A stretch of 64,000 bases of DNA from Mayamaea pseudoterrestris (Eukaryota), in contig BROI01000016.1 of NCBI GenBank assembly GCA_027923505.1, positions 62,001 through 126,000 on the forward strand, written 5' to 3'. The position numbers and the translations under genes are program-made. Shown piece by piece: positions 14,660-35,900 of the stretch; the stretch's first letter is position 1; each line of letters begins with the position of its first letter. Below the pieces are notes generated by a model that had not been told where the DNA came from, did no database searches, and saw nothing but the letters and a program-made list of their open reading frames with translations.

Positions 14660-15871
14660 CTATGATTTGTTGAACAAGTTTTTAAGCTTGTCAATGTCCG
14701 CACTGCTCGCCTTGTTGTAGCCTGCATCGGGTGCGCCTCCTCGTCCGCCTTCGCCTCCTGACGGGCCGCGCGGAGATGGTCGCTTGGGTCGTCCACCTCG
14801 CGGTGGCGGCGGTGGTTCGTCCTCGTCGTCATCATCATCATCGTCGTCCGTCTTGGTTTCATTCTTGAGCCCCTTCAACTCATCCTCTAAATCAGCATCG
14901 TTTGCTGTTGACGTCACATTGAAATACTCGGCTCGCTGCGCTTCCATGATTTCCAATCCCTTCTTGACATACTTTTCCTCTCTACGTCGACGGAAGAACT
15001 CGCGCGTCCACAAAAAGCCAAAGGTTGGAATGAATAAGGCAGTAGCAATTTTTGCCGTCAAGACTCGCTGAGCCTGCTCGTTGGGCGTATTGTCAATGCC
15101 GGCAAACTGCGTGCGCGTATTTTTGTATGGACTAGCTCCCTTCGATTGTGATGCAGCCTGAGATGAAGGCGGAAGAATGTCACTTTCATCCATGAAATCT
15201 TCATCGTCTTCTTCATCAAGGTCGTCGTCATCCATGCCGGCATACAAACTATTCTTCTTCTTGGCTTGCTTTCCTTTGCGTCCAAATAGTGAAGAAGCCT
15301 TTTGCTTCGCCGAAGAAACCTTCGAATCCGATTCAGTCGTCGTCGTTGTCAAGCTGCTCCTGGTAGCCAATTGTTCCTGCAGTTCCTCAGCGTCAACGTC
15401 ACCCGTACTCAACTTTTGCGCCTGCTCCTGGTTCATGCCGGGCCGAATGCTGTACACCTTTTCGGTAATGTGCGAATTGCTCACGGGCGGAGCCGCAGCA
15501 GTCGATGATGATGCTATGGCGGGCTGACCAAGAAAGAAGGAAACGACGAGTGCCATGGAAGCAAAGAAACGCCATAGTTGCTGGAATTTAAACATTCGAA
15601 GGGAGCGAAGAAGGCGCTTTAATTTGCTGTGTTTAACATTGCTACTTTCACTGATTGCTGAAAATAGACGAGAAACTTTTTCATTGTCAATCCGTGCAGG
15701 CCAAATAAGGTGGTGCCTGTTGAAGCTGACACGTGGATTGCAATCACTTCGCCGCTGCTGCAACGAAACGCTCGAGTATTGTAGAGGCTGCAGCTGCTGA
15801 AAGCCATAGCATTTCAAGATCAAGCAACTTGATAGCAAGCATAAGCTTTGTAGCAGACTTGATCTCCTCAT
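14660..15871 (-). CDS. Hypothetical membrane protein, predicted plastid-targeted
   Basis: Signal peptide ..LKCYG-F, two hydrophobic segments, acidic and Pro/Gly-rich tail. Single long ORF. Confidence 0.7.
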   Translation of the reverse strand: MRRSSLLQSLCLLSSCLILKCYGFQQLQPLQYSSVSLQQRRSDCNPRVSFNRHHLIWPARIDNEKVSRLFSAISESSNVKHSKLKRLLRSLRMFKFQQLWRFFASMALVVSFFLGQPAIASSSTAAAPPVSNSHITEKVYSIRPGMNQEQAQKLSTGDVDAEELQEQLATRSSLTTTTTESDSKVSSAKQKASSLFGRKGKQAKKKNSLYAGMDDDDLDEEDDEDFMDESDILPPSSQAASQSKGASPYKNTRTQFAGIDNTPNEQAQRVLTAKIATALFIPTFGFLWTREFFRRRREEKYVKKGLEIMEAQRAEYFNVTSTANDADLEDELKGLKNETKTDDDDDDDDEDEPPPPPRGGRPKRPSPRGPSGGEGGRGGAPDAGYNKASSADIDKLKNLFNKS

Positions 15872-16329
15872 TGCTCTGTAGTTTGGTTGCAATGGTGCAG
15901 TAGATGGCATTGATTAATTTATATCCTTGGCAAGATATGTCGCCGCGTTCAGTCGAATCTACCGTAGGCGAGCGAACCAAAATTTTCAATCCTGTAGCTA
16001 CCGTAGAGATGATTCAAATCAATTATCGCAGCGTATAAAAGGGTCCTTCTTCGAGACGCCGTTCGAATGTCGATCGAGCGCGCATGGTCGATCGGATCCG
16101 TCCTCATCCGAGCGACAGACAGACACATCGTACCGGTAATGGCGGGCTCGCGACAATGTCTGCTGTCCTGTCCTCCCATACCGTAGCTGCTTGGAATCCG
16201 CTATGGATGATTTTTTTGCACCAATCTCACCGCAAGCATGTCCCCATGCATAGCCAAACAGGATTGATGGAACAAGACTACAATTGGGGGTAGATTTGGC
16301 AGGCCATGCACGGAAGGCCATGCACTGTA

Positions 16330-19300
16330 GCACCATGTAGCTGGTTCCAGTGTGAAATGCCCCTATAACATGCCATGTATACACCCAAATCACACCAGAA
16401 TAATGCCAACATCATTATTCAGTGTGCGCTACAAGTTGGCATGCCTGGCTGGTGTATCAGTAGACAGCAATGTGACTAGTGAGAACTTCTCACCAGTCTC
16501 AGCCCGCAGATGTTGTGACATTCAATTGCCCCTATAACATGCTCTGTATACGCTCAAATCACACCAGAATGGTGCCAGCATCATTATGCAGTCTGCGCTA
16601 CAAAAAAAATTGCCTGGCTGGTGTCTCAGTAGACTGCAATGTGATTGGTGACAAGTTGTCTCCAGTCTCAGCCTGCAGATGCCATGACATTCAATTGCCC
16701 CTATAACATGCCCTGTATAAGTCTAATCACACCAAAAATGGTGCCAACATCATTATTCAGTGTGCGCTACAAGTTGGCATGCCTGGCTGGTGTATCAATA
16801 GACTGCAATGTGACTAATGAGAACTTCTCACCAGTCTTAGCCCGCAGATGCTGTGACATTCAATTGCCCCTATAACATGCTCTGTATACGCTCAAATCAC
16901 ACCAGAATAGTGCCAGCATCATTATGCAGTCTGCGCTACAAAACAACATGCCTGGCTGGTGTCTCAGTAGACTGCTATGTGATTGGTGACAAGTTGTCAC
17001 CAGTCTCAGCCTGTAGATGCCATGACATTCAATTGCCCCTAAAACATGCCCTGTATAAGTATAAATCACACCAAAATGGTGCCAACATCATTATTCAGTC
17101 CGCGCTAAAAGATGGCATGCCTGGCTGGTGTCTTGGTAGACTGCAATGCATTTGGTTACAACTTGTCAACAGTCTCAGCCCGCAGGTGCTGTGACATTTA
17201 AACGCACCTACAGCAAGCCCTGTAGGTGCCCAAATTACACCAGAATGGTGCCAACATCATTATTCATTCTGAGCTACAAGATGGTAGGCTTGGCTGGTGT
17301 CTCAGGGGATGGCAATGTATTTGGTGACAACTTGTCACCAGTCTCAGCCCGCAGATGCCGTGACATTCAAACACCCCTACAGCAAGCCCTGTAGGTGCCC
17401 AAAATATACCAGAATGGTGCCAACATCATTATTCAGGCTGCGCTACAAGATGGTAGGCTTGGCTGGTGTCTCAGGGGATGGCAATGTATTTGGTGACAAC
17501 TTGTCACCAGTCTCAGCCTGCAGATGCCGTGACATTCAAACGCCCCTACAGCAAGCCCTGTAGGTGCCCAAAATACACCAGAATGGTGCCAACATCATTA
17601 TTTAGGCTGAACTACAAGATGGTAGGCTTGGCTGGTGTCTCAGGGGATGGCAATGTATTTGGTGACAACTTGTCACCAGTCTCAGCCCGCAGATGCCATG
17701 ACATTCAAACGCCCCTACAGCAAGCCCTGTAGGTGCCCAAAATACACCAGAATGGTGCCAACATCATTATTCAGGCTACGCTACAAGATGGTAGGCTTGG
17801 CTGGTGTCTCAGGGGATGGCAATGTATTTGGTGACAACTTGTCACCAGTCTCAGCCCGCAGATGCCATTACATTCAAACGCCCCTACAGCAAGCCCTGTA
17901 GGTGCCCAAAATACACCAGAATGGAGCCAACATCATTTTTCAGGCTGAACTACAAGATGGTAGGCTTGGCTGGTGTCTCAGGGGATGGCAATGTATTTGG
18001 TGACAACTTGTCACCAGTCTCAGCCCGCAGATGCCGTGACATTCAAACGCCCCTACAGCAAGCCCTGTAGGTGCCCAAAATACACCAGAATGGTGCCAAC
18101 ATCATAATTCAGGCTGCGCTACAAGATGGTAGGCTTGGCTGATGTCTCAGGGGATGGCAATGTATTTGGTGACAACTTGTCACCAGTCTCAGCCTGCAGA
18201 TGCCGTGACATTCAAACGCCCCTACAGCAAGCCCTGTAGGTGCCCAAAAACACCAGAATGGTGCCAACATCATTATTTAAGCTGCGGTACAAGATGGTAG
18301 GCTTGGCTGGTGTCTCAGGGGATGGCAATGTATTTGGTGACAACTTGTCACCAGTCTCAGCCGCAGATGCTGTGACATTCAAACGCCCCTACAGCAAGCC
18401 CTGTAGGTGCCCAAAATACACCAGAATGGTGCCAACATCATTATTCAGGCTGCGCTACAAGATGGTAGGCTTGGCTGGTGTCTCAGGGGATGTCAATGTA
18501 TTTGGTGACAACTTGTCACCAGTCTCAGCCCGCAGATGCCGGGACATTCAAACGCCCATACAGCAAGCCCTGTAGGTGCCCAAAATACACCAGAACGGTG
18601 CCAACATCATTATTCAGGCTGCGCTACAAGATGGTAGGCTTGGCTGATGTCTCAGGGGATGGCAATGTATTTGGTGACAACTTGTCACCAGTCTCAGCCT
18701 GCAGATGCCGTGACATTCAAACGCCCCTACAGCAAGCCCTGTAGGTGCCCAAATACACCAGAATGGTGCCAACATCATTATTCAGGCTGCGGTACAAGAT
18801 GGTAGGCTTGGCTGGTGTCTCAGGGGATGGCAATGTATTTGGTGACAACTTGTCACCAGTCTCAGCCCGCAGATGCCGTGACATTCAAACGCCCCTACAG
18901 CAAGCCCTGTAGGTGCCCAAAATACACCAGAATGGTGCCAACATCATTATTCAGGCTGCGCTACAAGATGGTAGGCTTGGCTGGTGTCACAGGGGATGGC
19001 AATGTATTTGGTGACAACTTGTCACCAGTCTCAGCCCGCAGATGCCGGGACATTCAAACGCCCCTACAGCAAGCCCTGTAGGTGCCCAAAATACACCAGA
19101 ATGGAGCCCACATCAGTATTCATGCTGCGCTACAAGATGGTAGGCTTGGCTGGTGTCTCAGGGGATGGCAATGTAATTGGTGACAACTTGTCACCAGTCT
19201 CAGCCCGCAGATGCCGTGACATTCAAACGCCCCTACAGCAAGCCCTGTAGGTGCCCAAAATACACCAGAATGGTGCCAACATCATAATTCAGGCTACGCT

Positions 19301-22300
19301 ACAAGATGGTAGGCTTGGCTGGTGTCTCAGGGGATGGCAATGTCTTTGGTGACAACTTGTCACCAGTCTCAGCCCGCAGATGCCGGGACATTCAAACGCC
19401 CATACAGCAAGCCCTGTAGGTGCCCAAAATACACCAGAATGGTGCCAACATCATTATTCAGGCTGCGCTACAAGATGGTAGGCTTGGCTGGTGTCTCAGG
19501 GGATGGAAATGTATTTGGTGACAACTTGTCACCAGTCTCAGCCCGCAGATGCCGGGACATTCAAACACCCCTACAGCAAGCCCTGTAGGTGCCCGAAATA
19601 CACCAGAATGGTGCCAACATCATTATTCAGGCTGCGCTACAAGATGGTAGGCTTGGCTGGTGTCTCTGGGGATGGCAATGTATTTGGTGACAACTTGTCA
19701 CCAGTCTCAGCCCGCAGATGCCGGGACATTCAAACGCCCCTACAGCAAGCCCTGTAGGTGCCCAAAATACACCAGAATGGTGCCAACATCATTATTCAGG
19801 CTGCGCTACAAGATGGTAGGCTTGGCTGGTGTCTCAGGGATGGCAATGTATTTGGTGACAACTTGTCACCAGTCTCAGCCCGCAGATGCCGTGACATTCA
19901 AACGCCCCTACAGCAAGCCCTGTAGGTGCCCAAAATACACCAGAATGGTGCCAACATCATTATTCAGGCTGCACTACAAGATGGTAGGCTTGGCTGGTGT
20001 CTCAGGGGATGGCAATGTATTTGGTGACAACCTGTCACCAGTCTCAGCCCGCAGATGCCGTGACATTCAAACGCCCCTACAGCAAGCCCTGTAGGTGCCC
20101 AAAATACACCAGAATGGTGCCCACATCATTATTCAGGCTGCGCTACAAGATGGTAGGCTTGGCTGGTGTCTCAGGGGATGGCAATGTATTTGGTGACAAC
20201 TTGTCACCAGTCTCAGCCCGCAGATGCCGGGACATTCAAAAGCCCTACAGCAAGCCCTGTAGGTGCCCAAAATACACCAGAATGGTGCCAACATCATTAT
20301 TCAGGCTGAACTACAAGATGGTAGGCTTGGCTGGTGTCTCAGGGGATGGCAATGTATTTGGTGACAACTTGTCACCAGTCTCAGCCGCAGATGCCGGGAC
20401 ATTCAAACACCCCTACAGCAAGCCCTGTAGGTGCCCGAAATACACCAGAATGGTGCCAACATCATTATTCAGGCTGCGCTACAAGATGGTAGGCTTGGCT
20501 GGTGTCTCTGGGGATGGCAATGTATTTGGTGACAACTTGTCACCAGTCTCAGCCCGCAGATGCCGTGACATTCAAAAGCCCTACAGCAAGCCCTGTAGGT
20601 GCCCAAAATACACCAGAATGGTGCCAACATCATTATTCAGGCTGAACTACAAGATGGTAGGCTTGGCTGGTGTCTCAGGGGATGGCAATGTATTTGGTGA
20701 CAACTTGTCACCAGTCTCAGCCCGCAGATGCCGGGACATTCAAACGCCCCTACGGCAAGCCCTGTAGGTGCCCAAAATACACCAGAATGGTGCCAACATC
20801 ATTATTCAGGCTGCGCTACAAGATGGTAGGCTTGGCTGGTGTCTCTGGGGATGGCAATGTATTTGGTGACAACTTGTCACCAGTCTCAGCCCGCAGATGC
20901 CGGGACATTCAAACACCCCTACAGCAAGCCCTGTAGGTGCCCAAAATACACCAGAATGGTGCCAACATCATTATTCAGGCTGAACTACAAGATGGTAGGC
21001 TTGGCTGGTGTCTCTGGGGATGGCAATGTATTTGGTGACAACTTGTCACCAGTCTCAGCCCGCAGATGCCGTGACATTCAAACGCCCCTACAGCAAGCCC
21101 TGTAGGTGCCCAAAATACACCAGAATGGTGCCAACATCATTATTCAGGCTGCGCTACAAGATGGTAGGCTTGGCTGGTGTCTCAGGTGATGGCAATGTAT
21201 TTGGTGACAACTTGTCACCAGTCTCAGCCTGCAGATGCCGGGACATTCAAACGCCCCATACGGCAAGCCCTGTAGGTGCCCGAAATACACCAGAATGGTG
21301 CCAACATCATTATTCAGGCTGCGCTACAAGATGGAAGGCTTGGCTGGTGTCTCAGGGGATGGCAATGTCTTTGGTGACAACCTGTCACCAGTCTCAGCCC
21401 GCAGATGCCGTGACAATCAAACGCCCCTACAGCAAGCCCTGTAGGTGCCCAAAATACACCAGAATGGAGCCCACATCAGTATTCATGCTGCGCTACAAGA
21501 TGGTAGGCTTGGCTGGTGTCTCAGGGGATGGCAATGTATTTGGTGACAACTTGTCACCAGTCTCAGCCCGCAGATGCCGTGACATTCAAACGCCCCTACA
21601 GCAAGCCCTGTAGGTGCCCAAAATACACCAGAATGGTGCCAACATCATTATTCAGGCTGAACTACAAGATGGTAGGCTTGGCTGGTGTCTCTGGGAATGG
21701 CAATGTATTTGGTGACAACTTGTCACCAGTCTCAGCCTGCAGATGCCGTGACATTCAAACTCCCCTACAGCAAGCCCTGTAGGTGCCCAAAATACACCAG
21801 AATGGTGCCAACATCATTACTCAGGCTGAACTACAAGATGGTAGGCTTGGCTGGTGTCTCAGGGGATGGCAATGTATTTGGTGACAACTTGTCACCAGTC
21901 TCAGCCCGCAGATGCCGGGACATTCAAACGCCCCTACGGCAAGCACTGTAGGTGCCCAAAATACACCAGAATGGTGCCAACATCATTATTCAGGCTGCGC
22001 TACAAGATGGAGCCCTGTAGGTGCCCAAAATACACCAGAATGGTGCCAACATCATTATTCAGGCTGCGCTACAAGATGGTTGGCTTGGCTGGTGTCTCAG
22101 GGGATGGCAATGTATTTGGTGACAACTTGTCACCAGTCCCAACCCGCAGATGCTGTGACATTCAAACGCCCCTACAGCAAGCCCTGTAGGTGCCCAAAAT
22201 ACACCAGAATAGTGCCAACATCATTATTCAGGCTGCACTACATATGGTAGGCTTGGCTGGTGTCTCAGGGGATGGAAATGTATTTGGTGACAACTTGTCA

Positions 22301-24130
22301 CCAGTCTCAGCCTGCAGATGCCGTGACATTCAAACGCCCCTACAGCAAGCCCTGTAGGTGCCCAAAATACACCAGAATGGTGCCAACATCATTATTCAGG
22401 CTGCGCTACAAGATGGTAGGCTTGGCTGGTGTCTCAGGGGATAGCAATGTATTTGGTGACAACTTGTCACCAGTCTCAGCCCGCAGATGCCGTGACATTC
22501 AAACGCCCCTACAGCAAGCCCTGTAGGTGCTCAAAATACACCAGAATGGTGCCAACATCATTATTCAGGCTGCGCTACAAGATGGTAGGCTTGGCTGGTG
22601 TTTCTAGTGATGGCAATGTATTTGGTGACAACTTGTCACCAGTCTCAGCCCGCAGATGTTGTGACATTCAAACACCCCTACAGCAAGCCCTGTAGGTGCC
22701 CAAAATACACCAGAATGGTGCCAACATCATTATTCAGGCTGCGCTACAAGATGGTAGGCTTGTCTGGTGTTTCAGGGGATGGCAATGTATTTGGTGACAA
22801 CTTGTCACCAGTCTCAGCCCGCAGATGCCGTGACATTCAAACGCCCCTACAGCAAGCCCTGTAGGTGCTCAAAATACACCAGAATGCTGCCAACATCATT
22901 ATTTAAGCTGAGCTACAAGATGGTAGGCTTGCTGGTGTCTCAGGGGATGGCAATGTATTTGGTGACAACTTGTCACCAGTCTCAGCCCGCAGATGCCATG
23001 ACATTCAAACGCCCCTACAGCAAGCCCTGTAGGTGCCCAAAATACACCAGAATGGTGCCAACATCATTATTCAGGCTGCGCTACAAGATGGTAGGCTTGG
23101 TTGGTGTCTCAGGGGATGGCAATGTATTTGGTGACAACTTGTCACCAGTCTCAGCCTGCAGATGCCAGGACATTCAAACGCCACTACAGCAAGCCCTGTA
23201 GGTGCCCAAAATACACCAGAATGGTGCCAACATCATTATTCAGGCTGCGCTACAAGATGGTAGGCTTGGCTGGTGTCTCAGGGGATGGCAATGTATTTGG
23301 TGACAACTTGTCACCAGTCCAGCCCGCTGAAGCCGGGACATTCAAACGCCCCTACAGCAAGCCCTGTAGGTGCCCAAAATACACCAGAATGGTGCCAACA
23401 TCATTATTCAGGCTGAGCTACAAGATGGTAGGCTTGGCTGGTGTCTCAGGGGATAGCAATGTATTTGGTGACAACTTGTCACCAGTCTCAGCCCGCAGAT
23501 GTTGTGACATTCAAACACCCCTACAGCAAGCCCTGTAGGTGCCCAAAATACACCAGAATGGTGCCAACATCATTATTCAGGCTGCGCTACAAGATGGTAG
23601 GCTTGTCTGGTGTCTCAGGGGATGGCAATGTATTTGGTGACAACTTGTCACCAGTCTCAGCCCGCAGATGCCGTGACATTCAAACGCCCCTACAGCAAGC
23701 CCTGTAGGTGCCCAAAATACACCAGAATGGTGCCAACATCATTATTTAAGCTGAGCTACAAGATGGTAGGCTTGGCTGGTGTCTCAGGGGATGGCAATGT
23801 ATTTGGTGACAACTTGTCACCAGTCTCAGCCCGCAGATGCCGTGACATTCAAACGCCCCTACAGCAAGCCCTGTAGGTGCCCAAAATACACCAGAATGGT
23901 GCCAACATCATTATTCAGGCTGCGCTACAAGATGGTAGGCTTGGTTGGTGTCTCAGGGGATGGCAATGTATTTGGTAACAACTTGTCACCAGTCTCAGCC
24001 CGCAGATGCCCAGACATTCAAAGGCCACTACAGCAAGCCCTGTAGGTGCCCAAAATACACCGCATTGGTGCCAACATCATTATTCAGGCTGCGCTACAAG
24101 ATGGTAGGCTTGGCTGGTGTCTCAGGGGAT
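16330..24130. repeat. Satellite A, 169-bp tandem array (~46 copies), left block
   Basis: Unit ...TTTGGTGACAACTTGTCACCAGTCTCAGCCCGCAGATGCCGTGACATTCAAACGCCCCTACAGCAAGCCCTGTAGGTGCCCAAAATACACCAGAATGGTGCC... recurs every 169 bp. The first ~5 copies are more diverged. Confidence 0.97.
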
Positions 24131-25950
24131 ATCTGACAGGGATGAATCTGCAACTTGTGGTGTTGGCCATACCCACAGTGGAGGCCGTACCCATGTTGTC
24201 AGCCTCCAGGCAGTCCTTTTTTGCACCATTTGAGACTATGCACCTGTCAATGGCATACCCTGGGCATGTTTTGCCTGACTCATTGGGTATTTGGGTGGCC
24301 AGGGCATGGGGCGTTTGACAGGGAAGAATCTGCAACTTGTGGTGTTGGCCATACCCACAGTGGAGGCCGTACCCATGGTGTCAGCCTCCAGGCAGTCCTT
24401 TTGCACCATTTGAGACTATGCACCTGTCAATGGCATACCCTGGACATGTTTTGCCTGACTCATTGGGTATTTGGGTGGCCAGGGCATGGGGCGTTTGACA
24501 GGGAAGAATCTGCAACTTGTGGTGTTGGCCATACCCACAGTGGAGGCCGTACCCATGTTGTCAGCCTCCAGGCAGTCCTTTTGCACCATTTGAGACTCTG
24601 CACCTGTCAATGGCATACCCTGGACATGTTTTGCCTGACTCATTGAGTATTTGGGTGGCCAGGGCATGGGGCGTTTGACAGGGAAGAATCTGCAACTTGT
24701 GGTGTTGGCCATACCCACAGTGGAGGCCGTACCCATGGTGTCAGCCTCCAGGCAGTCCTTTTTGCACCATTTGAGACTATGCACCTGTCAATGGCATACC
24801 CTGGACATGTTTTGCCTGACTCATTGGGTATTTGGGTGGCCAGGGCATGGGGCGTTTGACAGGGAAGAATCTGCAACTTGTGGTGTTGGCCATACCCACA
24901 GTGGAGGCCGTACCCATGGTGTCAGCCTCCAGGCAGTCCTTTTTGCACCATTTGAGACTCTGCACCTGTCAATGGCATACCCTGGACATGTTTTGCCTGA
25001 CTCATTGGGTATTTGGGTGGCCAGGGCATGGGGCGTTTGACAGGGAAGAATCTGCAACTTGTGGTGTTGGCCATACCCACAGTGGAGGCCGTACCCATGT
25101 TGTCAGCCTCCAGGCAGTCCTTTTTGCACCATTTGAGACTATGCACCTGTCAATGGCATACCCTGGACATGTTTTTGCCTGACTCATTGGGTATTTGGGT
25201 GGCCAGGGCATGGGGCGTTTGACAGGAAGAATCTGCAACTTGTGGTGTTGGCCATACCCACAGTGGAGGCCGTACCCATGTTGTCAGCCTCCAGGCAGTC
25301 CTTTTTGCACCATTTGAGACTATGCACCTGTCAATGGCATACCCTGGACATGTTTTGCCTGACTCATTGGGTATTTGGGTGGCCAGGGCATGGGGCGTTT
25401 GACAGGGAAGAATCTGCAACTTGTGGTGTTGGCCATACCCACAGTGGAGGCCGTACCCATGGTGTCAGCCTCCAGGCAGTCCTTTTTGCACCATTTGAGA
25501 CTCTGCACCTGTCAATGGCATACCCTGGACATGTTTTGCCTGACTCATTGGGTATTTGGGTGGCCAGGGCATGGGGCGTTTGACAGGGAAGAATCTGCAA
25601 CTTGTGGTGTTGGCCATACCCACAGTGGAGGCCGTACCCATGGTGTCAGCCTCCAGGCAGTCCTTTTTGCACCATTTGAGACTCTGCACCTGTCAATGGC
25701 ATACCCTGGACATGTTTTGCCTGACTCATTGGGTATTTGGGTGGCCAGGGCATGGGGCGTTTGACAGGTAAGAATCTGCAACTTGTGGTGTTGGCCATAC
25801 CCACAGTGGAGGCCGTACCCATGGTTTCAGCCTCCAGGCAGTCCTGTTTGCACTTTTTTAGACTCTGCACCTATCAATGGCTTTCCCTGCAATGTTTTGC
25901 CTGACTCATTGGGTATTTGGGTGGCCAGGGCATGGGGCATTTGACAGGTC
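24131..25950. repeat. Satellite B, 180-181-bp tandem array (~10 copies) inserted within satellite A
   Basis: TGACAGGGAAGAATCTGCAACTTGTGGTGTTGGCCATACCC... recurs at ~24317, 24497, 24677, 24858 and onward. Confidence 0.97.
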
Positions 25951-28900
25951 AATGTCAACTTGTCACCAGTCTCAGCCCGCAGATGCCATGACATTCAAAT
26001 GCCCCTACAGCAAGCCCTGTAGGTGCCCAAAATACACCAAAATAGTGCCAACATCCTTATTCAGGCTGCGCTACAAGATGGTAGGCTTGGCTGGTGTCTC
26101 AGGGGATGGCAATGTATTTGGTGACAACTTGTCACCAGTCTCAGCCCGCAAACACCAAGACAATCATACACCACTACAGCAAGCCCTGTAGGTGCCCAAA
26201 ATACACCAGAATGGTGCCAACATCATTATTCAGGCTGCGCTACAAGATGGTAGGCTTGGCTGGTGTCTCAGGGGATGGCAATGTATTTAGTGACAACTTG
26301 TCACCAGTCTCAGCCCGCAGATGCTGTGACATTCAAACGCCCCTACAGCAGGCCCTGTAGGTGCCCAAAATACACATGAATGGTACCACCATCATTATTC
26401 AGGCTGCGCTACAAGATGGTAGGCTTGGCTGGTGTCTCAGGGCATGGCAATGTATTTGGTGACAACTTGTCACCAATCTCAGCCCGCAGATGCCGTGACA
26501 TTCAAACCTCCCTACAGCAAGCCCTGTAGGTGCCCAAAATACACCTGAATGGTGCCAACATCATTATTCAGGCTGCACTACAAGATGGTAGGCTTGGCTG
26601 GTGTCTCAGGGGATGGCAATGTATTTAGTGACAACTTGTCACCAGTCTCAGCCCGCAGATGCCGTGACGTTCAAACGCCCCTACAGCAGGCCCTGTAGGT
26701 GCCCAAAATACACCAGAATGGTACCAACATCATTATTCAGGCTGCGCTACAAGATGGTAGGCTTGGCTGGTGTCTCAGGGCATGGCAATGTATTTGGTGA
26801 CAACTTGTCACCAGTCTCAGCCCGCAGATGCCGTGACATTCAAATGCCCCTACAGCAAGCCCTGTAGGTGCCCAAAATACACCAGAATGGTGCCAACATC
26901 TGACAACTTGTCACCAGTCTCAGCCCGCAAAAACCATGACAATCATACAGCACTACAGCAAGCCCTGTAGGTGCCCAAAATACACCAGAATGGTGCCAAC
27001 ATCATTATTCAGGCTGCGCTACAAGATGGTAGGCTTGGCTGGTGTCTCAGGGGATGGCAATGTATTTAGTGACAACTTGTCACCAGTCTCAGCCCGCAGA
27101 TGCTGTGACATTCAAACGCCCCTACAGCAGGCCCTGTAGGTGCCCAAAATACACATGAATGGTACCACCATCATTATTCAGGCTGCGCTACAAGATGGTA
27201 GGCTTGGCTGGTGTCTCAGGGGATGGCAATGTATTTGGTGACAACTTGTCACCAATCTCAGCCCGCAGATGCCGTGACATTCAAACCTCCCTACAGCAAG
27301 CCCTGTAGGTGCCCAAAATACACCTGAATGGTGCCAACATCATTATTCAGGCTGCACTACAAGATGGTAGGCTTGGCTGGTGTCTCAGGGGATGGCAATG
27401 TATTTAGTGACAACTTGTCACCAGTCTCAGCCCGCAGATGCCGTGACGTTCAAACGCCCCTACAGCAGGCCCTGTAGGTGCCCAAAATACACCAGAATGG
27501 TACCAACATCATTATTCAGGCTGCGCTACAAGATGGTAGGCTTGGCTGGTGTCTCAGGGCATGGCAATGTATTTGGTGACAACTTGTCACCAGTCTCAGC
27601 CCGCAGATGCCGTGACATTCAAATGCCCCTACAGCAAGCCCTGTAGGTGCCCAAAATACACCAGAATGGTGCCAACATCATCATTCAGGCTGCGCTACAA
27701 GATGGTAGGCTTGGCTGGTGTCTCAGGGGATGGCAATGTATTTGGTGACAACTTGTCACCAGTCTCAGCCCGCAGATGCCGTGACATTCAAACGCCCCTA
27801 CAGCAAGCCCTGTAGGTGCCCAAAATACACCAGAATGGTGCCAACATCATTATTCAGGCTGCGCTACAAGATGGTAGGCTTGGCTGGTGTCTCAGGGGAT
27901 GGCAATGTATTTGGTGACAACTTGTCACCAATCTCAGCCCGCAGATGCCGTGACATTCAAACGCCCCTACAGCAAGCCCTGTAGGTGCCCAAAATACACC
28001 AGAATGGTGCCAACATCAGTATTCAGGCTGCGCTACAAGATAGTAGGCTTGGCGGGTGTCTCAGGGCATGGCAATGTATTTGGTGACAACTTGTCACCAG
28101 TCTCAGCCCGCAGATGCCGTGACATTCAAATGCCCCTACAGCAAGCCCTGTAGGTGCCCAAAATACACCTGAATGGTGCCAACATCATTATTCAGGCTGC
28201 ACTACAAGATGGTAGGCTTGGCTGGTAGCTCAGGGGATTGCAATGTATTTGGTGACAACTTGTCACCAGTCTCAGTGCCATTCAAATGCCCCTACAGCAA
28301 GCCCTGTAGGTGCCCAAAATACACCAGAATGGTGCCAACATCATTATTCCGGCTGCGCTACAAGATGGTATGCTTGGCTGGTGTCTCAGGGGATGGCAAT
28401 GTATTTGGTGACAACTTGTCACCAGTCTCAGCCCGCAGATGCCGTGACATTCAAATGCCCCTACAGCAAGCCCTGTAGGTGCCCAAAATACACCAGAATG
28501 GTGCCAACATCATTATTCAGGCTGCGCTACAAGATGGTAGGCTTGGCTGGTGTCTCAGGGGATGGCAATGTATTTGGTGACAACTTGTCACCAGTCTCAG
28601 CCCGCAGATGTCGTGACATTCAAACGCCCCTACAGCAAGCCCTGTAGGTGCCCAAAATACACCAGAATGGTGCCAACATCATTATTCAGGTTGCGCTACA
28701 AGATGGTAGGCTTGGCTGGTGTCTCAGGGGATGGCAATGTATTGGTGACAACTTGTCACCAGTCTCAGCCCGCAGATGCCGTGACATTCAAACGCCCCTA
28801 AAGCAAGCCCTGTAGGTGCCCAAAATAGACCAGAATGGTGCCAACATCATTATTCAGGCTGAGCAACAAGATGGTATGCCTGGCTAGTGTCTCAGGGGAC

Positions 28901-29302
28901 GGCAATGATATTGGTGACAACTTGTCACCAGTCTCAGCCCGCAGATGCCGTGACAGTCATACACCCCTACAGCAAGCCCTGTAGGTGCCCAAAATACACC
29001 AGAATGGTGCCAACATCATTAATCAGGCTGCGCTACAAGATGGTAGGCTTGGCTGGTGTCTCAGGGGATGGCAATGTATTTGGTGACAACTTGTCACCAA
29101 TCTCAGCCCGCAGATGCCGTGACATTCAAACGCCCCTACAGCAAGTCCTGTAGGTGCCCAAAATACACCTGAATAGTGCCAACATCAAAATTCAGGCTGC
29201 GCTACAAGATGGTAGGCTTGGCGGGTGTCTCAGGGCATGGCAATGTATTTGGTGACAACTTGTCACCAGTCTCAGCCCGCAGATGCCGTGACATTCAAAC
29301 GC
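25951..29302. repeat. Satellite A, right block (~20 copies)
   Basis: Same 169-bp unit and orientation as the left block. Confidence 0.97.
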
Positions 29303-30806
29303 ACAGAACTTTGGCCATAAATCATTTGAAGCATTCCCACCTTTCATTAAGCTTTTGGTAAGGTCAATCAACCATTACAACCTTGGGGGTCATGCAAATC
29401 CTTTAAGTTTTTGGGAATAGACAAGCTAGCTTCCACATAGCTAAGTATCCCGTATGTCACCACACCACACCTCCAGGTCTGCTGGGCATCCCCATCAATT
29501 ACAAACATTGCCACCATTGGCCAAACTACCAATGAAGCCAACAAACACTGACACAACTGCCAAGCTCAAGTTTTTGGAAAGCTGTGGGAGTAGATGGGTC
29601 AAATTGACCAACAGCGCAGTCTTTGAATCCAAACCAATCAAACTATGGCTTTGACTGTCATTTTAGCCAATGCCACCTTTCAACAAGATTTACGTGAGCA
29701 ACTATGACTCATTCAATGTTGGACAACTCTTGTGTTCCTGGCAAAACAGGAGTAGATATGCTGTATTTAGTGCGACTGTATGTCACACAGCAGCAGCGGC
29801 AGCACCCACAAAACTTTGGCCTTCCCCATCATGTGAAGCATTCCCACCTTTCAAAAAGCTTTTTATAAAGTCAATCATCCACTACAACCTTGGCGGTCAT
29901 GCAAATCCTTCAAGTTTTTGGAGTAGACATGCTAGCTTCCACATAGCTAAGTATCCCGTATGTCGCCACACCACACCACTAGGTCAGCTGGGCATCCCCA
30001 TCAATTACCAACATTGCCACCATTGGCCAAGCTATCAATGAGGCCAACAAAACCAAACAAACCTGACATGCTCAAGTTTTGGGAAAGCTGTGGGAGTAGA
30101 TGGGCCAAATAGAGCAACAGCGCAGTCTTTGAATCCAATCAAACTATGGCTCTGACTGTCATTTTAGCCAATGCCACCTTTCAACAAGATTTACGTGAGC
30201 AACTATGACTCATTCAATGTTGGACAACTCATGTGTTCCTGGCAAAACAGGAGTAGATATGCTGTATTTTGTGCGACTGTATGTCACACAGCAGCAGCGG
30301 CAGCACCCACAAAACTTTGACCATCCCCATCATGTGAAGCATTCCCACCTTTCAAAAAGCTTTTTATATAGTCAATCATCCACTCCAACCTTGGCGATCA
30401 TGCAAATCCTTCAAGATTTGGGAGTAGACATGCTTGCTTTCACATAGCTAAGTATCCCGTATGTCGCCACACCACACCACCAGGTCCGCTGGGCATCCCC
30501 ATCAATTACCAACATTGCCACCATCGTCCAAGCTATCCATGAGGCCTACAAAGACAAACAAACCTGGCAAGCTCAAGTTTTGGGAAAGCTGTGGGAGTAG
30601 ATGGGCCAAATATAACAACAGCGCAGTCTATGAATCCGAACCAATCAATCTATGGCTGTGATTGTCTTTTTAGCCATTGCCACTGGTAAACATGAGATAC
30701 TATGACTCATTCAATGTTGGACACCTCATGTGTTCCTGGCAAAACAGGAGTAGATACCCTGTATTCCATGCGACTGTATATCACGCAGCAGCAGCGGCAG
30801 CACCCA
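29303..30806. repeat. Repeat C, ~501-507-bp unit, ~3 diverged copies
   Basis: GAAGCATTCCCACCTTTCA at 29328, 29835 and 30336. Confidence 0.9.
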
Positions 30807-31703
30807 GGCAGGACAGCAGTGGCTTGTTTGACTGATCAATGATGCACTGAAGCCTCCTTCAGCAAGTGGTGGGAGCCTGGTTGGTGTTTGGCAGTCAACT
30901 GGTGTGTTTGTGTAAAAACTGTCTCTGGAGCATTGGCCAGAGCTTGCCCAGAGCTAGGTGCCTGAAATCCATTCTTGGGATGTAGAACTTTGCTTACATA
31001 TATGTTTGGGTTTCTGCGCATGAATGGATCATTCCAAGTGCTTGGGGGTGTCAGAGCAAGTGGCATATAGCAGGAACAATTACTAGGCCCATCATTTTAT
31101 GGTTCATAAAACAAAGAAATGGAGACGATACTGTGCGATGGCGCCCTTCCACAACCATGGCAGGACAGCATTGGCTTGTTTGACTGATCAATGATGCACT
31201 GAAGCCTCCTTCAGCAAGTGGTGGGAGCCTGGTTGGTGTTTAGCAGTCAACTGGTGTGTTTGTGTTCAAACTCTCTCTGGAGCATTGGCCAGAGCTTGGT
31301 GCCTGAAATCCATTCTTGGAGTGTAGAACAGTCACTAACATTTATATTTTGGGTTTCTGCGCAAGAATGGATCATTCCAAGTGCTTGTGGGTGCTAGAGC
31401 AAGTGGCATATAGCAGGAACAATGGCTAGGCCCATCATTTTATGGTTCATAAAACAAAGAAATGGAGACTATACTGTGTCATGGCGCCCTTCCACTACCA
31501 TGGCAGGTCAGCAGTGGCTTGTTTGACTGATCAATGATGCACTGAAGCCTCCATCAGCAAGTGGTGGGAGCCTGATTGGTGTTTGGCAGTCAACTAAAGT
31601 GTTTGTTTTCACACAGTCTCTGAAGCATTGGCCAGAGCTTGGCCACAGCTTGGTGCCCCAAATCCATTATTGGCATGTAGAACAGTCACTTACATATATG
31701 TTG
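30807..31703. repeat. Repeat D, ~343-352-bp unit, ~2.6 copies (resumes at 32468-32600)
   Basis: GGCAGGWCAGCAKTGGCTTGTTTGACTGATCAATGATGCACTGAAGCCTCC at ~30807, 31159 and 31502. Confidence 0.9.
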
Positions 31704-32467
31704 AGCACTGTCTGGAGGCCTACACCATCTGCAAAATGGGTGTGGCCAACACCCCAAATTATGGAATCATACCACTACAATGCCCCGTCCCCTGATCACC
31801 CAACAACCCAATGAGTCATGCAAAACATGTCCAGGGTGTGCCATTGACCTGAGGATGGTCTGACATGGTACAAAACGGACTGCCTGGAGGCCTACAGCAT
31901 GGAATGGTCTACAAGATGGGTGTGGCCAACACCCCAAATTATGGAATCATACCACTACAATGCCCCATGCCCTGGCCACCCAACAGCCCAATGAGTCAGG
32001 CAAAACATGTCCTGGGTGTGCCATTGACATGAGGATGGGCTGAAATGGTGCAAAACGGACTGCCTGGAGGCCTACACCATCTGCAAAATGGGTGTGGCCA
32101 ACACCCCAAATTATGGAATCATACCACTACAATGCCCCGTCCCCTGATCACCCAACAACCCAATGAGTCATGCAAAACATGTCCAGGGTGTGCCATTGAC
32201 ATGAGGATGGTCTGACATGGTACAAAACGGACTGCCTGGAGGCCTACAGCATGGAATGGTCTACAAGATGGGTGTGGCCAACACCCCAAATTATGGAATC
32301 ATACCACTACAATGCCCCATGCCCTGGCCCCCCAACAACCCAATGAGTCAGGCAAAACATGTCCAGGGTGTGCCATTGACATGAGGATGGGCTGAAATGG
32401 TGCAAAACGGACTGCCTGGAGGCCTACACCATCTGCAAAATGGGTGTGGCCAACACCCCAAATTATG
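31704..32467. repeat. Satellite B' (inverted, diverged relative of B), alternating 172/180-bp monomers forming a 352-bp dimer
   Basis: CCAATGAGTCAGGCAAAACATGTCCAGGG is the reverse complement of B. CCTACA anchors lie at 31719, 31891, 32071, 32243 and 32423. Confidence 0.9.
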
Positions 32468-32600
32468 TAGGCCCATCATTTTATGGTTCATAAAACAAAG
32501 AAATGGAGACTATACTGTGTCATGGCGCCCTTCCACTACCATGGCAGGACAGCATTGGCCTGTTTGACTGATCAATAATGCATTGACTGTGAAGCCTTCT
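32468..32600. repeat. Terminal fragment of repeat D
   Basis: TAGGCCCATCATTTTATGGTTCATAAAACAAAGAAATGGAGAC also occurs at ~31084 and ~31427. Confidence 0.85.
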
Positions 32601-32806: not shown

Positions 32807-32907
32807 ATGCGTCTCTATCAAGCATCCGCTTGCTTGCTTTTCGCCTCGCAGCTGCAGTCCACGGCATGCTCGTCGGACGTTCAGTCCACCATTGTTTCGG
32901 CGACTGG

Positions 32908-32943
<36 letters not shown>

Positions 32944-35900
32944 AGAAGCATCGTCGGTCTACGAGTCGCTAAAGGAAGCAAAGAAGAATGTCTCGTCGTC
33001 GGCATCAGCAGCAGCAGCATCAGCAGCAGCAGCAGCATCGAGCATTGATCATGGAAAGGCAATGATTGATTGGATTCGAGCGCATGGAGGCTTTGTCCAC
33101 GAGAGTCTTTACATTGGTCCCATTACTTCAGACGATAGTTTGAGTAGCATTGGGGAAGGCAAGGTGGAGCATTCATATAACAATACTCCCTACGGCTTGT
33201 TTACTCGCGACACTCTCCCTGTAGGCACGACGATTCTCCAAATTCCATACGAATTGACGATTCACACGCATGCCGACAAGGACTTTGATCAATGCGAAAC
33301 GGCGCGCAAATTGCACAAGGAGCTAATCAAAGGAGCCGATTCCTTTTATGCTCCATACGTACAATACTTGAGTGAGACGCAAACCAAAGGGCAAGTGCCG
33401 ACGCTTTGGAGCGCTGCCGGCAATCAGCTATTGAAGGATTTGCTGCGGCACAATGACAACGACGAAACGATTGCGCTGCCGCCCTACGACGTTTCTTCGT
33501 GGGAATACTTGGATGTTTGTCAAGCTTCACCGGAGGAAGAGTTCGCCTTGGAGCTATTGCGCTACCGCGGCTGGGACGAAGTCTTGGTTCCAGTCTACGA
33601 CATGATGTCGCACTCCAACGATCCAAATGTAATGAACACGGCATCGTCCAAGATTATGCGCAACCTTGACAAGGAGCCCATTGTTGTCAAGACAGTGTTG
33701 GAGGTGTCTGCAAAGTCGCAACTCTATTGCTCCTACAATGACTATACTGGCTCGCAAAACCTGAATGAATGGTATGGTACGCCTGGTTTGCTCATTGATT
33801 TTGGTTTTGTTGAATCGCTGCCACAAAGATGGTTCTTTGACCAGGATCGCTGGAATGCGGAAGGATTTTTGGACGAGGACAATTATTTCGAGGAACATGC
33901 GGCCATTAACTTTGAGCTGTCCAAATCGACCGTCAATGGAGAAGTGGTCGTCACGTGGATGCACGAGGATTTGCGGGAGATTGACGTGCTGTTTGCTCGC
34001 GAAGCACTGGAACATTTGAAGAGTTTTGGCTCCATGCGTCTGCAGAGTCGTCCCGAAGGAGTCTTGGAGCGAGAGTTCAACATGATCAAGGAGTACGGAG
34101 CGGCCATGCAATTTGCTCTCGAAACGGCATTGTATCAACACTTTTACGACCCGTTGCTCTTTGGCTCAGCCGATACATACAGCAATATCAATGAAGAGCT
34201 ATATTCGGAGGATCGGCACTACACTTGCGATCACATTCAGTCGCATTCATTCCACGGGCATGAAACGCTTGAAAAGGTTGTTTCACACTATCAGCGACTC
34301 GAATTTGATGTGCATCCAGAGACGCGCGAAACATGCTTTTGGCTCGACATGTACGTTCAGCAGTGCACTTCGTATCGGCCGCATTATCATGAGGTTGCCA
34401 TTCACTACACGGCTCGATATTTGGATAAGGTGCAGCGAATCGCGTGGATTGGTGGCGGCGACTCCATGCTTCTGCATGATGCGTTAAAATATCCGACACT
34501 GGAACTGGCGCTCGGATTGGAGCTGGATCAAAAGGTAACACGCTACAATTACAAGTACATGGGATCGCAGCCACACTATGATAACGACAAGGTGCAATGG
34601 TGGTATGGCGACGCGACAAAGAGTTTGTTGATGCTTCCTGAGTCATACTTTGGTAGTTTTGACATGGTAGTGATTGACTTGTCAGACACGGCCATGCAGC
34701 TTTCGGTGACTTCGGACTTGAGCATCTTTGCAGCACTCTCCTTGCTGCTTCGACCCGGTGGAATCATGGTAAAGAATGAGGAGTACTTGGAGCAATTCTC
34801 GCGCGTCTTTGACTACACTCTGCAGGCGCACTTTTACGATGTTCCCATAGTTTGCTCGCAATCGTTTATTCTTGGCAGCTACGGTACGGATTTTTTGGCG
34901 ACGAAACCCAAGGACCATGAGCCGTCGGATCTTATGTTTGTCAATCAGCGTCCAGACATTCAAAGCGATTTTGGTATTTGGCATGATTATCGACGCAATA
35001 TTACGCGAACAAATGCCCATTGTCGCGACGACGGTGAGGATGCGACTGCCTCACCAGTGGAGCAAACAACTAGCCCTGGTATTCTCATGGTTGTTGAAGC
35101 CGAAAATGTTACAGCCAACCTTGCGTCAACCATGGCTGTAAAAGAGCTTCTAGTGACGGCGCTTGAGCGCGACGCAAAAATGATAGTGACGGATGCTGTT
35201 GTTCAAGAAGGCTCGGGCGTTATTGGATTGGCGCTTAGAACTGGTTATGTCATCGCCCGAATGTATCCAAAGTACAATTACTGTGCGCTCGACATCCACT
35301 TCTGGAGTAGCTTTGAGTTACAAGAGAGCGTCAAGAAGGTGTTGATTGATGCTCTTGGAGGCGGCATTGTACCGAAGTCCGTCTCTTCCTATCGCATTGT
35401 GGCTGGCGGTATGTTCGGCGTCGATACTTGGAAGGATGACGCAAAGAAGCAAGGTCCGCGCAAGGTGCACGACTGCCAGCGCCAGCAAGAGTCTTTGCGT
35501 GGCCCCTTTACAGATCAGCATAATGTTGATTTGATTATGAAGGAAATGTTGTCGTCGCTGGTGAGCAACGAAGCCAAAAATATGGACGTATTGGTTGTGT
35601 GTGGAGCTGCTGGAGCAGACTGCAAAACTGCCAATACTTTAAAAACGATTTCCACTGTTGGGCAAGTACATGAATTGCGAGCTTGCGATAGCCTCGGTGA
35701 TTACATGAGTATGGAAATTTGCGAGATGCAAACGTTTACGTCATTAGACAAGTTTGCCAAGGCGTCTGTCGAATTCGAGGGCTTTCGCGCTTTGATAATC
35801 GATCCCGAAGCTCCATTAGAGATTATGCAGATTGTCCTGAACCTATTTAAAACTGGAAATATCTGGAAGTACACGAAACAAGAAGGATTTTTGATTCTTG

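What the first reader, a model, noticed from the sequence alone, without database searches (positions are those of the whole stretch)
16330..32600. 16-kb compound satellite island with all periods near multiples of ~170-180 bp: candidate satellite centromere or heterochromatin domain
Seen: five repeat types abut with no genes between them. Periods are 169 (A), 180-181 (B), 172+180=352 (B'), 343-352 (D) and 501-507 (C; 507=3x169), i.e. mono-, di- and tri-nucleosome-sized. The island separates a compact housekeeping block from an accessory zone. Known: nucleosome-length satellites are typical of plant and animal centromeres, whereas characterised Phaeodactylum centromeres are short low-GC unique sequences. 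Inference: this may be a satellite-type centromere or nucleosome-phasing domain unusual for diatoms.
Basis: partly seen in the sequence, partly recalled or inferred. Interest (0 to 1): 0.78.

Follow-up and report, generated by a model that had tools for sequence, protein, structure and literature searches.

The report
Methylation-scarred satellite DNA block in diatom
A 16-kb gene-free stretch of a diatom chromosome is a real patchwork of four unrelated nucleosome-sized tandem repeats that looks long silenced by DNA methylation; it could mark a centromere, but nothing available here can show that.

Summary
Window 16326-32586 is one uninterrupted, non-coding block of tandem repeats. It has a 169-bp array A (about 66 units) split by a 181-bp array B, then three 501-505-bp units (C). 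A 343-352-bp array D follows, split by B', an inverted 172+180-bp relative of B.

A, B/B', C and D are unrelated to each other. The block is the only CpG-depleted part of the 64 kb: observed/expected 0.26 against 1.03-1.12 in the flanks. The switch happens within 200 bp at each edge, which is the footprint of long-term cytosine methylation.

Summed contig depth in two public runs suggests that A and B-type units occur roughly 10^4-10^5 times per genome, and C and D tens to hundreds of times. The island therefore holds under 1% of its main families.

The best protein match names Mayamaea pseudoterrestris. Its genome paper lists 0 bp of satellites.

Most likely this is satellite heterochromatin (0.65). 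Centromere function is untested (about 0.2), and the array may be collapsed in the assembly. This scan has already noted similar satellite islands on other pieces of the same genome.

The parts
14660..15910 (-). Left flanking ORF (416 aa, no Pfam family). It is transcribed away from the island, and its ATG lies about 420 bp from the first A sequence.
16326..17228 (+). A-edge subfamily: one partial unit and 5 full 168-170-bp units. Four of them form two dimers (alternate units 93-95% alike). They are only 77-83% identical to core A units.
   Evidence: Loose ends show that the same subfamily motif is common elsewhere in the reads.
17229..24130 (+). A core array, part 1: 40 full 169-bp units, 94-96% alike, with no higher-order period. 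There is a 69-bp irregular piece at 21955-22023. The array ends at unit position 82.
24131..25952 (+). B array: about 10 units of 180-181 bp, 97% alike. It is pasted into a broken A unit, from which A positions 83-96 are lost.
25953..29298 (+). A core array, part 2: 18 full units plus partial ones. It resumes at unit position 97 and shows no diagnostic difference from part 1. It holds a 103-bp irregular piece at 26798-27003 and a recent duplication, 26195-26870 = 26974-27649, in which 3 of the 4 unit pairs are identical and one is 99.4% alike.
29299..30806 (+). C: three units of 501-505 bp, 85-90% alike. This is the lowest-GC part of the island (45%). It has a weak inner period near 171 bp.
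30807..31702 (+). D array: 2.6 units with starts 352 and 343 bp apart, 89-90% alike. It breaks off at unit position 200.
31703..32467 (-). B' array: a 352-bp dimer (172+180 bp) x 2.2. Dimers are 98.6% alike and the two halves 87% alike. It is 78-81% identical to B in inverted orientation. It is pasted into a broken D unit, from which D positions 201-277 are lost.
32468..32586 (+). D remnant: unit positions 278-343 plus 44 bp of the next unit. This is the right edge of the island.
   Evidence: A 385-nt contig of run X2 matches 32553-32902 without a difference, bridging the edge into unique DNA (table 8).
32807..36892 (+). Right flanking gene: a SET domain plus spermine/spermidine synthase plus an AdoMet-decarboxylase-like ORF. 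It is transcribed away from the island, and its first ATG lies about 220 bp from the edge.

Best explanation
This is a compound block of non-coding satellite DNA in the nuclear genome of a raphid pennate diatom. The best protein match names Mayamaea pseudoterrestris. The block is kept as CpG-methylated, silent chromatin, that is, constitutive heterochromatin.

It is built from four unrelated repeat families. Families A (169 bp) and B/B' (172-181 bp) belong to the genome's major satellites. Only a small share of their copies lies here. C and D are low-copy families.

Shown from sequence:
- The arrays grew by local tandem duplication or unequal exchange.
- B-type arrays were pasted into broken A and D units with loss of 14 and 77 host bases and no target duplication. 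That is repair-type insertion, not transposition.
- CpG has decayed to TpG/CpA across the whole block and nowhere else in the window.
- The borders are sharp and lie next to the 5' ends of two genes transcribed away from the block.

Inferred:
- Methylation and silencing are the cause of the CpG decay.
- The unit lengths reflect one, two or three nucleosomes.
- The block itself has no sequence-specific job, unless it is also where the kinetochore forms, which is untested.
For: Anatomy: searches give the arrays, periods and nesting. One search shows junctions with host bases deleted and none duplicated. One search shows the four families are unrelated: all cross-family local alignments have z <= 3.0, against z 47-94 within families.

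Local growth: four units are duplicated almost exactly, 3 pairs 100% and 1 pair 99.4%. B' and the A edge have a dimeric higher order. The 47 variants carried by 2-6 units lie closer together than chance, mean nearest distance 6.1 units against 13.5.

Methylation footprint:
- CpG observed/expected is 0.26 for the island and 0.12-0.31 in each of the six array segments.
- The flanks give 1.03-1.12 and a young Copia element 1.29. TpG and CpA are at 1.68 and 1.67.
- All 33 one-kb windows with CpG o/e below 0.6 lie between 16001 and 33000. The value flips within one 200-bp step at about 16200 and about 32600.
- In 58 core A units, CpG sites differ from the consensus in 62 of 464 cells (13.4%), against 173 of 9338 (1.85%) at other sites. 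43 of the 62 are C>T or G>A.

Non-coding: 0 Rfam matches at E <= 0.1. Five of 6 island ORFs have no Pfam family, and the sixth has only a weak hit in which no stretch passes on its own.

Abundance:
- Summed contig depth over A is 2.9-9.8 million in run X1 against 100.5 on the unique gene. In X2 it is 0.37-1.14 million against 28.
- B' gives 1.6-3.3 million (X1) and 0.27-0.53 million (X2).
- C is 29-315 times and D 8-71 times the unique depth.
- 98135 of 555133 contigs of X1, and 16479 of 182933 of X2, fit this 7.1-kb stretch.
Against: Methylation, histone marks and silencing were not measured. CpG decay is a footprint of the past and may have been acquired by the families elsewhere.

Each family is effectively one sample, so the CpG statistic rests on four independent consensus sequences. 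The per-site counts count cells, not events. One shared CG>AA variant gives 24 of the 62 cells.

The read-laying tool itself warns that summed contig depth is no copy number. An A content of several Mb also sits badly with the published 27.2-Mb k-mer estimate and 30.6-Mb assembly (PMC9724779, passages). I recall, and did not test, that k-mer estimators discount very high-copy words.

Genes with normal CpG content start within 220-420 bp of both edges, which is unusually close for heterochromatin. The core A array has no higher-order or distance-dependent structure.
Confidence: 0.65

Rival explanations
1. This is the functional regional centromere, or its pericentromere, of this chromosome. CENH3 nucleosomes sit on the A array, and the other families form the flanking layers, as in plant and animal satellite centromeres.
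For: The units are nucleosome-sized, several families are layered, methylation has left a footprint, and the block is gene-free. A is extremely abundant in the reads. From recall of Melters et al. 2013 (PMC4053949; only the listing was seen), the most abundant tandem repeat is usually the centromeric one. Earlier unchecked notes of this scan describe 12-37-kb compound satellite islands between ordinary genes on other pieces of this genome, which would fit one island per chromosome. The window has no Phaeodactylum-type low-GC block as an alternative candidate.
Against: No CENH3, Hi-C or per-chromosome count could be obtained. The only diatom centromeres described in the papers I found are short, low-GC and repeat-free: Phaeodactylum (10.1101/096016) and the putative ones of Fistulifera (10.1101/2021.11.10.468027). 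The island has 50% GC and never less than 37% per 100 bp. There is no higher-order repeat in the A core. As assembled, the island holds under 1% of the A units implied, so the bulk arrays are elsewhere. The single-strand fold energy of the units is not unusual (z -1.3 to +0.8; only the A edge reaches -2.7).
Confidence: 0.2
2. The island as drawn is an assembly product. Either a much longer array has been collapsed to 16 kb, or two different chromosomes have been joined through their shared A arrays. This rival is not exclusive of the best explanation.
For: The published assembly of the best-matching species used Nanopore reads with N50 8.6 kb (PMC9724779), which is shorter than the island. implies 10^4-10^5 A units in the reads, but the assembly totals 30.6 Mb with 0 bp called satellite and 2.26 Mb unclassified. 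Most copies must therefore be missing or collapsed. A part 1 and part 2 carry no locus-specific variants. There are phase breaks at 22010/22024 and 26900/26901.
Against: Variation among units is biological in kind: it is CpG-biased, shared and locally clustered. It is not consensus-flat. The nested order A-B-A-C-D-B'-D is specific. One short-read contig bridges the right edge into the unique flank without a difference (table 8). It is not certain that the window comes from that published assembly.
Confidence: 0.3
3. The tandem arrays are cargo of a transposon, such as a Helitron/Helentron or an LTR element, which spread them around the genome.
For: B-type arrays occur twice here, in opposite orientation, each inside another family's unit. 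All four families are multi-copy. A Copia element lies 11 kb away.
Against: The two B-type arrays begin and end at different unit phases: B runs from about position 1 to about 9, and B' from about 16 to about 73. Host bases are deleted, not duplicated, at both insertions. There are no terminal inverted or long terminal repeats at the array ends (one search lists only B/B' pairs among the 25 longest of 48). There is no transposon domain in the island ORFs. No unit matches anything else in the window, including the Copia. Arrays of 40 or more units and 10^4-10^5 copies are far beyond typical transposon-borne arrays.
Confidence: 0.05

Closest known systems
Classical satellite DNA of plant and animal (peri)centromeric heterochromatin, such as Arabidopsis CEN178/180, human alpha satellite and Tribolium major satellites. 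These names are recalled; the general features are as in the satellite reviews listed, of which only listings were seen.
   Same: Head-to-tail arrays of about 170-180-bp units and their multiples. Very high copy number. Several unrelated families layered side by side. Local dimers. More diverged units at an array edge. A CpG-decay footprint of methylation. No coding capacity.
   Different: The host is a small-genome diatom, a lineage for which my searches turned up no paper about a satellite family. There is no higher-order repeat in the main array. The assembled block is only 16 kb and lies tightly between active-looking genes. There is no evidence of CENH3.
Centromeres of Phaeodactylum tricornutum (Diner et al., 10.1101/096016; abstract and passages read) and putative centromeres of Fistulifera solaris (10.1101/2021.11.10.468027; passages read).
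   Same: A gene-free stretch between ordinary genes in a related raphid pennate diatom.
   Different: Those centromeres are short (about 1.4-3 kb), low in GC (100-bp windows at or below 32%, or 36-42% overall) and lack repeats. This block is 16 kb, 50% GC and wholly repetitive. The low-GC test was run here and not met.
PpSat1 and PpSat2 satellites of the oomycete Phytophthora parasitica (PMC7290008; abstract read).
   Same: Abundant satellite families in another stramenopile. They were found only after a better assembly, and their function is unknown.
   Different: Different lineage and sequences. I did not read their unit lengths or locations, so no closer comparison is made.
Dispersed euchromatic satellite-like arrays, such as those of Tribolium castaneum (PMC4675708) and the oyster Helentron-borne arrays (PMC7492417). 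Only listings and abstract openings were seen.
   Same: Short arrays of about 170-bp units lying between genes, copies of families that also form large blocks elsewhere.
   Different: No transposon hallmarks were found here. This block is compound and CpG-decayed.

Membership tests
Satellite DNA (classical definition) | Long head-to-tail arrays of a monomer of about 100 bp or more | tested here: met
   A has 63 full and 7 partial units, B about 10, C 3, D 2.6 plus a remnant, and B' 4.3 half-units.
Satellite DNA (classical definition) | High copy number in the genome | tested here: inconclusive
   Summed contig depth is 10^4-10^5 times the unique depth for A and B', and 8-315 times for C and D, in two runs. 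The tool warns that this is not a copy number, and no raw reads or genome were available.
Satellite DNA (classical definition) | Non-coding | tested here: met
   0 Rfam matches. 5 of 6 island ORFs have no Pfam family. The Mpo1-like hit (25.1 bits, no stretch passing) in a repeat-derived ORF is taken as spurious.
Satellite DNA (classical definition) | Packaged as heterochromatin / methylated | tested here: inconclusive
   Only the sequence footprint could be tested: CpG o/e 0.26 against 1.03-1.12, with sharp borders, and a 7-fold excess of change at CpG sites. No methylome or ChIP data.
Satellite-type regional centromere | CENH3/CENP-A occupancy and kinetochore assembly | not testable with these tools
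   No ChIP data. No RNA or raw-read runs were listed.
Satellite-type regional centromere | One such locus per chromosome | not testable with these tools
   No genome is held. Earlier notes mention islands on other pieces, but these are unchecked and give no per-chromosome count.
Satellite-type regional centromere | Higher-order repeat or homogenised core (common, not universal) | tested here: not met
   Identity among the 40 core A units is flat at 95.6-96.1% for lags 1-12. Only B' and the A edge are dimeric.
Phaeodactylum-type diatom centromere | Cluster of 100-bp windows at or below 32% GC over 500 bp or more | tested here: not met
   158 of 63901 windows are at or below 32% GC. They fall in six clusters of 100-217 bp, none in the island. 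The island minimum is 37%. The lowest 500-bp GC in the window is 39.6%.
Phaeodactylum-type diatom centromere | No repeats | tested here: not met
   The block is entirely tandem repeats.
Transposon-borne tandem arrays | Fixed element ends, target-site duplication, linked transposon gene or terminal repeats | tested here: not met
   The array ends fall at different unit phases, and host bases are deleted at both insertions. There are no terminal repeats and no transposon domain.

The most novel reading that the evidence does not exclude
This small-genome diatom carries megabases of nucleosome-sized satellites that its published assembly and annotation miss (0 bp called satellite). On this reading, compound islands like this one are the collapsed images of its centromeres. 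They would be the first satellite-based regional centromeres in a diatom, and a switch of centromere type between close relatives of Phaeodactylum and Fistulifera. The three of four CpGs of the A unit that cluster within 24 bp (positions 122-145) could then mark methylated linkers that phase the nucleosomes.
Probability: 0.2. Interest if true: 0.8.

Novelty: new member of a known kind. Interest (0 to 1): 0.5.

Why it matters
Diatom chromosome biology and diatom artificial chromosomes rest on one model, Phaeodactylum, whose centromeres are short, low-GC and repeat-free.

A related freshwater diatom may hold very abundant 169-181-bp satellites with a methylation footprint, unnoticed in its genome paper. 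That would show that repeat-rich heterochromatin exists in compact diatom genomes. It would also mean that k-mer and assembly sizes may understate the genome.

It makes one open question directly testable: is the low-GC centromere general in diatoms, or can satellites take over? Probes for A and B, plus a CENH3 antibody or tag, would answer it.

Tried and rejected
- **Whole genome.** None is held, so islands per contig could not be counted.
- **RNA evidence.** No RNA holder was listed, so nothing can be said on expression.
- **Runs X6 and X7.** These are other organism labels from the same study. They hold A and B' words at far lower depth, plus 151-240-nt exact pieces of the unique flank at depth about 2. 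I read this as carry-over of the same organism's DNA, not as conservation in other species.
- **Metagenome scans.** Exact-match scans of metagenome contigs with an A motif and a motif shared by B and B' gave 0 loci each.
- **Scan-notes index.** Searches with an A stretch, a B' stretch and by words found nothing.
- **C as a trimer of A.** Rejected (z 0.7).
- **D as a dimer.** No signal (z 1.0).
- **One inversion explaining B and B'.** Rejected. The A parts on both sides of B, and the D parts on both sides of B', keep the same orientation. B and B' are also only 78-81% alike.
- **Dyad symmetry or non-B DNA as a centromere hint.** A carries short perfect palindromes, but whole-unit DNA fold energies are ordinary.
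- **Coding origin.** The many + strand ORFs in A, up to 256 aa, have no family.
- **Ten-bp AA/TT phasing.** No consistent peak across families.
- **Literature.** Three searches showed no paper on a diatom satellite family among the rows listed (20, 20 and 25 rows). Subscription papers are not covered by the library.


Full report

Yes. Tandem Repeats Finder on the whole window reports these arrays:
- 169-bp arrays at 16384-24130 and 25956-29302
- a 181-bp array at 24134-25948
- a 343-bp array at 30807-31642
- a 180/352-bp array at 31707-32467

Self-BLAST adds three units of about 505 bp at 29299-30806, beyond the tool's 500-bp limit. It also adds a D remnant at 32468-32586.

A partial A unit extends the left edge to about 16326. 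The block has 50.3% GC, like its flanks.

Nothing inside looks like a gene:
- There are 0 Rfam matches at E <= 0.1 over 15500-33500.
- The + strand ORFs that run through A units have no Pfam family.
- The one weak hit, Mpo1-like at 25.1 bits with no stretch passing on its own, lies in a B-derived ORF and is taken as spurious (6 island ORFs and 2 flank ORFs scanned).

**2. Anatomy**

*Family A.* It has 63 full and 7 partial units, about 11.2 kb.
- The 58 core units are 94-96% alike.
- Among the 40 units left of B, mean identity is flat at 95.6-96.1% for lags 1 to 12. There is no higher-order repeat.
- The five leftmost units are only 77-83% like the core. Four of them form two dimers, with alternate units 93-95% alike.
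- Loose ends of read contigs show that this edge type is a subfamily common elsewhere, not only local decay (table 7).
- The A units left and right of B carry no diagnostic differences, so they are one array.
- Variation is real and local. Of 235 substitution cells, 51 are singletons. The 47 variants carried by 2-6 units sit closer together than chance, 6.1 against 13.5 units.
- Four units are duplicated almost exactly: 26195-26870 = 26974-27649.

*Family B.* Ten units, 97% alike, sit inside a broken A unit. A stops at unit position 82 and resumes at 97.

*Family B'.* It is a 172+180-bp dimer repeated 2.2 times. Dimers are 98.6% alike and the halves 87% alike. It is 78-81% identical to B in inverted orientation. 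It sits inside a broken D unit: D stops at position 200 and resumes at 278.

*How B and B' got there.*
- Both insertions deleted host bases (14 and 77) and duplicated none.
- The two arrays start and end at different unit phases.
- This is what break repair with captured satellite DNA gives, not transposition.
- A single inversion cannot explain the pair. A keeps its orientation across B, and D keeps its orientation across B'.

*Relatedness of the families.*
- A, B/B', C and D are unrelated. All cross-family local alignments have z <= 3.0, against z 47-94 within families.
- C is not a visible trimer of A. Its best self-match lag is 171 bp (34.5% matches), and its first and last thirds align at z 5.8-5.9. 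C may therefore be an old trimer of about 170-bp units.
- D shows no half-period (z 1.0).

*The 'all near multiples of 170-180 bp' claim.* It is true for 169, 181, 172+180, 343-352 and 501-505. With four independent families, by my own rough estimate it is mildly more than chance. It is also the usual length spectrum of satellites.

**3. The strongest new evidence: a methylation footprint**

- CpG observed/expected is 0.26 for the island. The segments give A 0.29 and 0.30, B 0.15, C 0.31, D 0.12 and B' 0.12.
- Flanking genes give 1.03-1.12, and the Copia element at 44037-48299 gives 1.29.
- TpG and CpA are raised to 1.68 and 1.67.
- All 33 one-kb windows with CpG o/e below 0.6 lie between 16001 and 33000.
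- In 200-bp steps the value flips from 1.51 to 0.17 at about 16200, and from 0.18 to 0.94 at about 32600.
- Within core A units, the four CpG sites differ from the consensus in 62 of 464 cells (13.4%), against 173 of 9338 (1.85%) elsewhere. 43 of the 62 are C>T or G>A.
- These counts are cells, not events. One shared CG>AA variant gives 24 of them.

Diatoms are known to methylate repeats at CG. This is recalled; for PMC9998398 only the listing and the start of the abstract were seen. The simplest reading is long-standing CpG methylation of these families, that is, heterochromatin.

The borders lie next to the 5' ends of two genes transcribed away from the block. These are the ORF at 14660-15910 on the minus strand and the SET / spermine-synthase ORF whose first ATG is at 32807.

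**4. How common are the families?**

No genome is held. One run search listed eleven runs, all kept as contigs, none RNA. I laid four of them on 28900-36000.

Summed contig depth, with the unique gene (33166-36000) as the yardstick:

| Part | Run X1 | Run X2 |
|---|---|---|
| Unique gene | 100.5 | 28 |
| A bins | 2.9-9.8 million | 0.37-1.14 million |
| B' bins | 1.6-3.3 million | 0.27-0.53 million |
| C bins | 5.6-31.7 thousand | 0.8-2.4 thousand |
| D bins | 1.5-7.1 thousand | 0.23-0.68 thousand |

In addition, 98135 of 555133 contigs of X1 and 16479 of 182933 of X2 fit this 7.1-kb stretch.

Taken at face value:
- A and B-type units occur about 10^4-10^5 times per unique-depth equivalent. That is megabases.
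- C occurs about 29-315 times and D about 8-71 times.

The tool warns that such sums are not copy numbers, so I use them only for orders of magnitude. Even so, the island holds well under 1% of its two main families.

Runs X6 and X7 carry other organism labels. They show the satellites at much lower depth, together with tiny exact pieces of the unique flank at depth about 2. I take that as carry-over, not conservation.

**5. Which organism, and what is in print?**

The window's TCP-1 alpha ORF (5574-7142) is 100% identical to an NCBI protein named from Mayamaea pseudoterrestris. The next hits are unnamed at 88% and 84%, and named diatoms follow at 70-75%.

The flanks carry typical diatom genes: TCP-1, a PEX1-like AAA ATPase, an ABC-F protein, a SET / spermine-synthase fusion, FTR1, ferritin and a Copia element.

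The genome paper of that species (PMC9724779; passages, Table S3) reports:
- 30.6 Mb in 41 contigs
- a k-mer estimate of 27.2 Mb
- Nanopore read N50 of 8.6 kb
- 19% repeats, mainly Copia
- 'Satellites 0 elements, 0 bp', with 2.26 Mb unclassified

The words 'satellite' and 'centromere' do not occur in its main text.

Three literature searches showed no paper on a satellite family in a diatom among the rows listed.

The diatom centromeres in print are short, low-GC and repeat-free: Phaeodactylum (10.1101/096016, abstract and passages) and the putative ones of Fistulifera (36-42% GC, 1.4-2 kb; 10.1101/2021.11.10.468027, passages).

Applying the Phaeodactylum criterion here gives 158 of 63901 100-bp windows at or below 32% GC. 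They fall in six clusters of 100-217 bp, none in the island, whose minimum is 37%.

**6. Explanations**

*Best (0.65): satellite heterochromatin.* The block is made from genome-wide major satellites (A, B) and minor ones (C, D). It grew by local duplication, was invaded by satellite fragments during break repair, and was methylated for a long time.

*Centromere (about 0.2).*
- For: it fits the unit lengths, the layering, the abundance of A, and the unchecked earlier notes of similar 12-37-kb islands on other pieces.
- Against: nothing here measures CENH3 or counts islands per chromosome. The A core lacks a higher-order repeat. Unit fold energies are ordinary. The bulk of A lies elsewhere.

*Assembly collapse or a chimeric join through A (about 0.3, not exclusive).*
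- For: reads were shorter than the island, and the reads imply far more satellite than the assembly holds.
- Against: the variation is CpG-biased and locally clustered, the nested order is specific, and one short-read contig bridges the right edge exactly (table 8).

*Transposon cargo (0.05).* This fails every hallmark tested.

**7. Novelty and verdict**

Satellite DNA is an ordinary eukaryotic feature, so this is a new member of a known kind. The interest lies in the host.

It is a compact diatom genome, close to the model whose centromeres are repeat-free. The satellites are apparently very abundant, yet absent from the published annotation.

This scan has already reported similar islands on other DNA of the same genome. 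This report adds:
- the nested insertion anatomy
- the sharp CpG borders
- the depth figures for these four families
- the negative low-GC test

The centromere claim remains an untested possibility.

Noticed in passing
window 25953 and 26900/26901 (A unit position about 97); also 24130 (position 82): Two of the rearrangement breakpoints inside the A array restart at the same unit position, 97. These are the B|A junction and a jump from position 30 to 97. Position 97 lies at the left arm of the perfect palindrome in the A unit (8-bp arms around one base, unit positions 94-110). The B insertion removed positions 83-96, right beside it. B and A also share an 8-base word at that junction. With n = 2-3 this is only a hint that the palindrome is a fragile site.
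   Followed up: partly
window 32750-36892 (+): A single 1380-aa ORF joins a SET domain, a spermine/spermidine synthase domain and a weak AdoMet-decarboxylase match. It starts about 220 bp from the edge of the CpG-decayed block.
   Followed up: no
window 63447-63808: A 48-bp unit x 7.5, 95% alike, lies inside an ORF that is open to the window's end (63390-63998). It is probably a coding 16-residue repeat.
   Followed up: no
window 38775-39135: A 43-bp minisatellite x 8.5, 88% alike, with 128- and 171-bp higher orders. It lies outside the island.
   Followed up: no
window 43436-43549 and 49340-49440: Similar 14/30-bp repeat clusters lie on both sides of the Copia ORF at 44037-48299. They are probably inside its two LTRs. 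The element has CpG o/e 1.29, so unlike the satellites it shows no methylation decay.
   Followed up: no
runs X6, X7 laid on window 28900-36000: Runs labelled as other organisms of the same study hold the A and B' satellites, plus exact 151-240-nt pieces of the unique flank at depth about 2. This is most simply carry-over between libraries. High-copy satellites would be the first sign of such carry-over.
   Followed up: partly
PMC9724779, Table S3: The published repeat table of the best-matching species lists 0 satellites and 2.26 Mb of unclassified repeats. The satellites seen here are presumably hidden in that class or missing from the assembly.
   Followed up: partly
window 16853-29153 (+): The + strand of the A array is unusually open. 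There are dozens of 88-aa ORFs, one per unit, and one of 256 aa that reads through 4.5 units in shifting frames. No family matches, and I did not test whether the lack of stops exceeds chance.
   Followed up: partly
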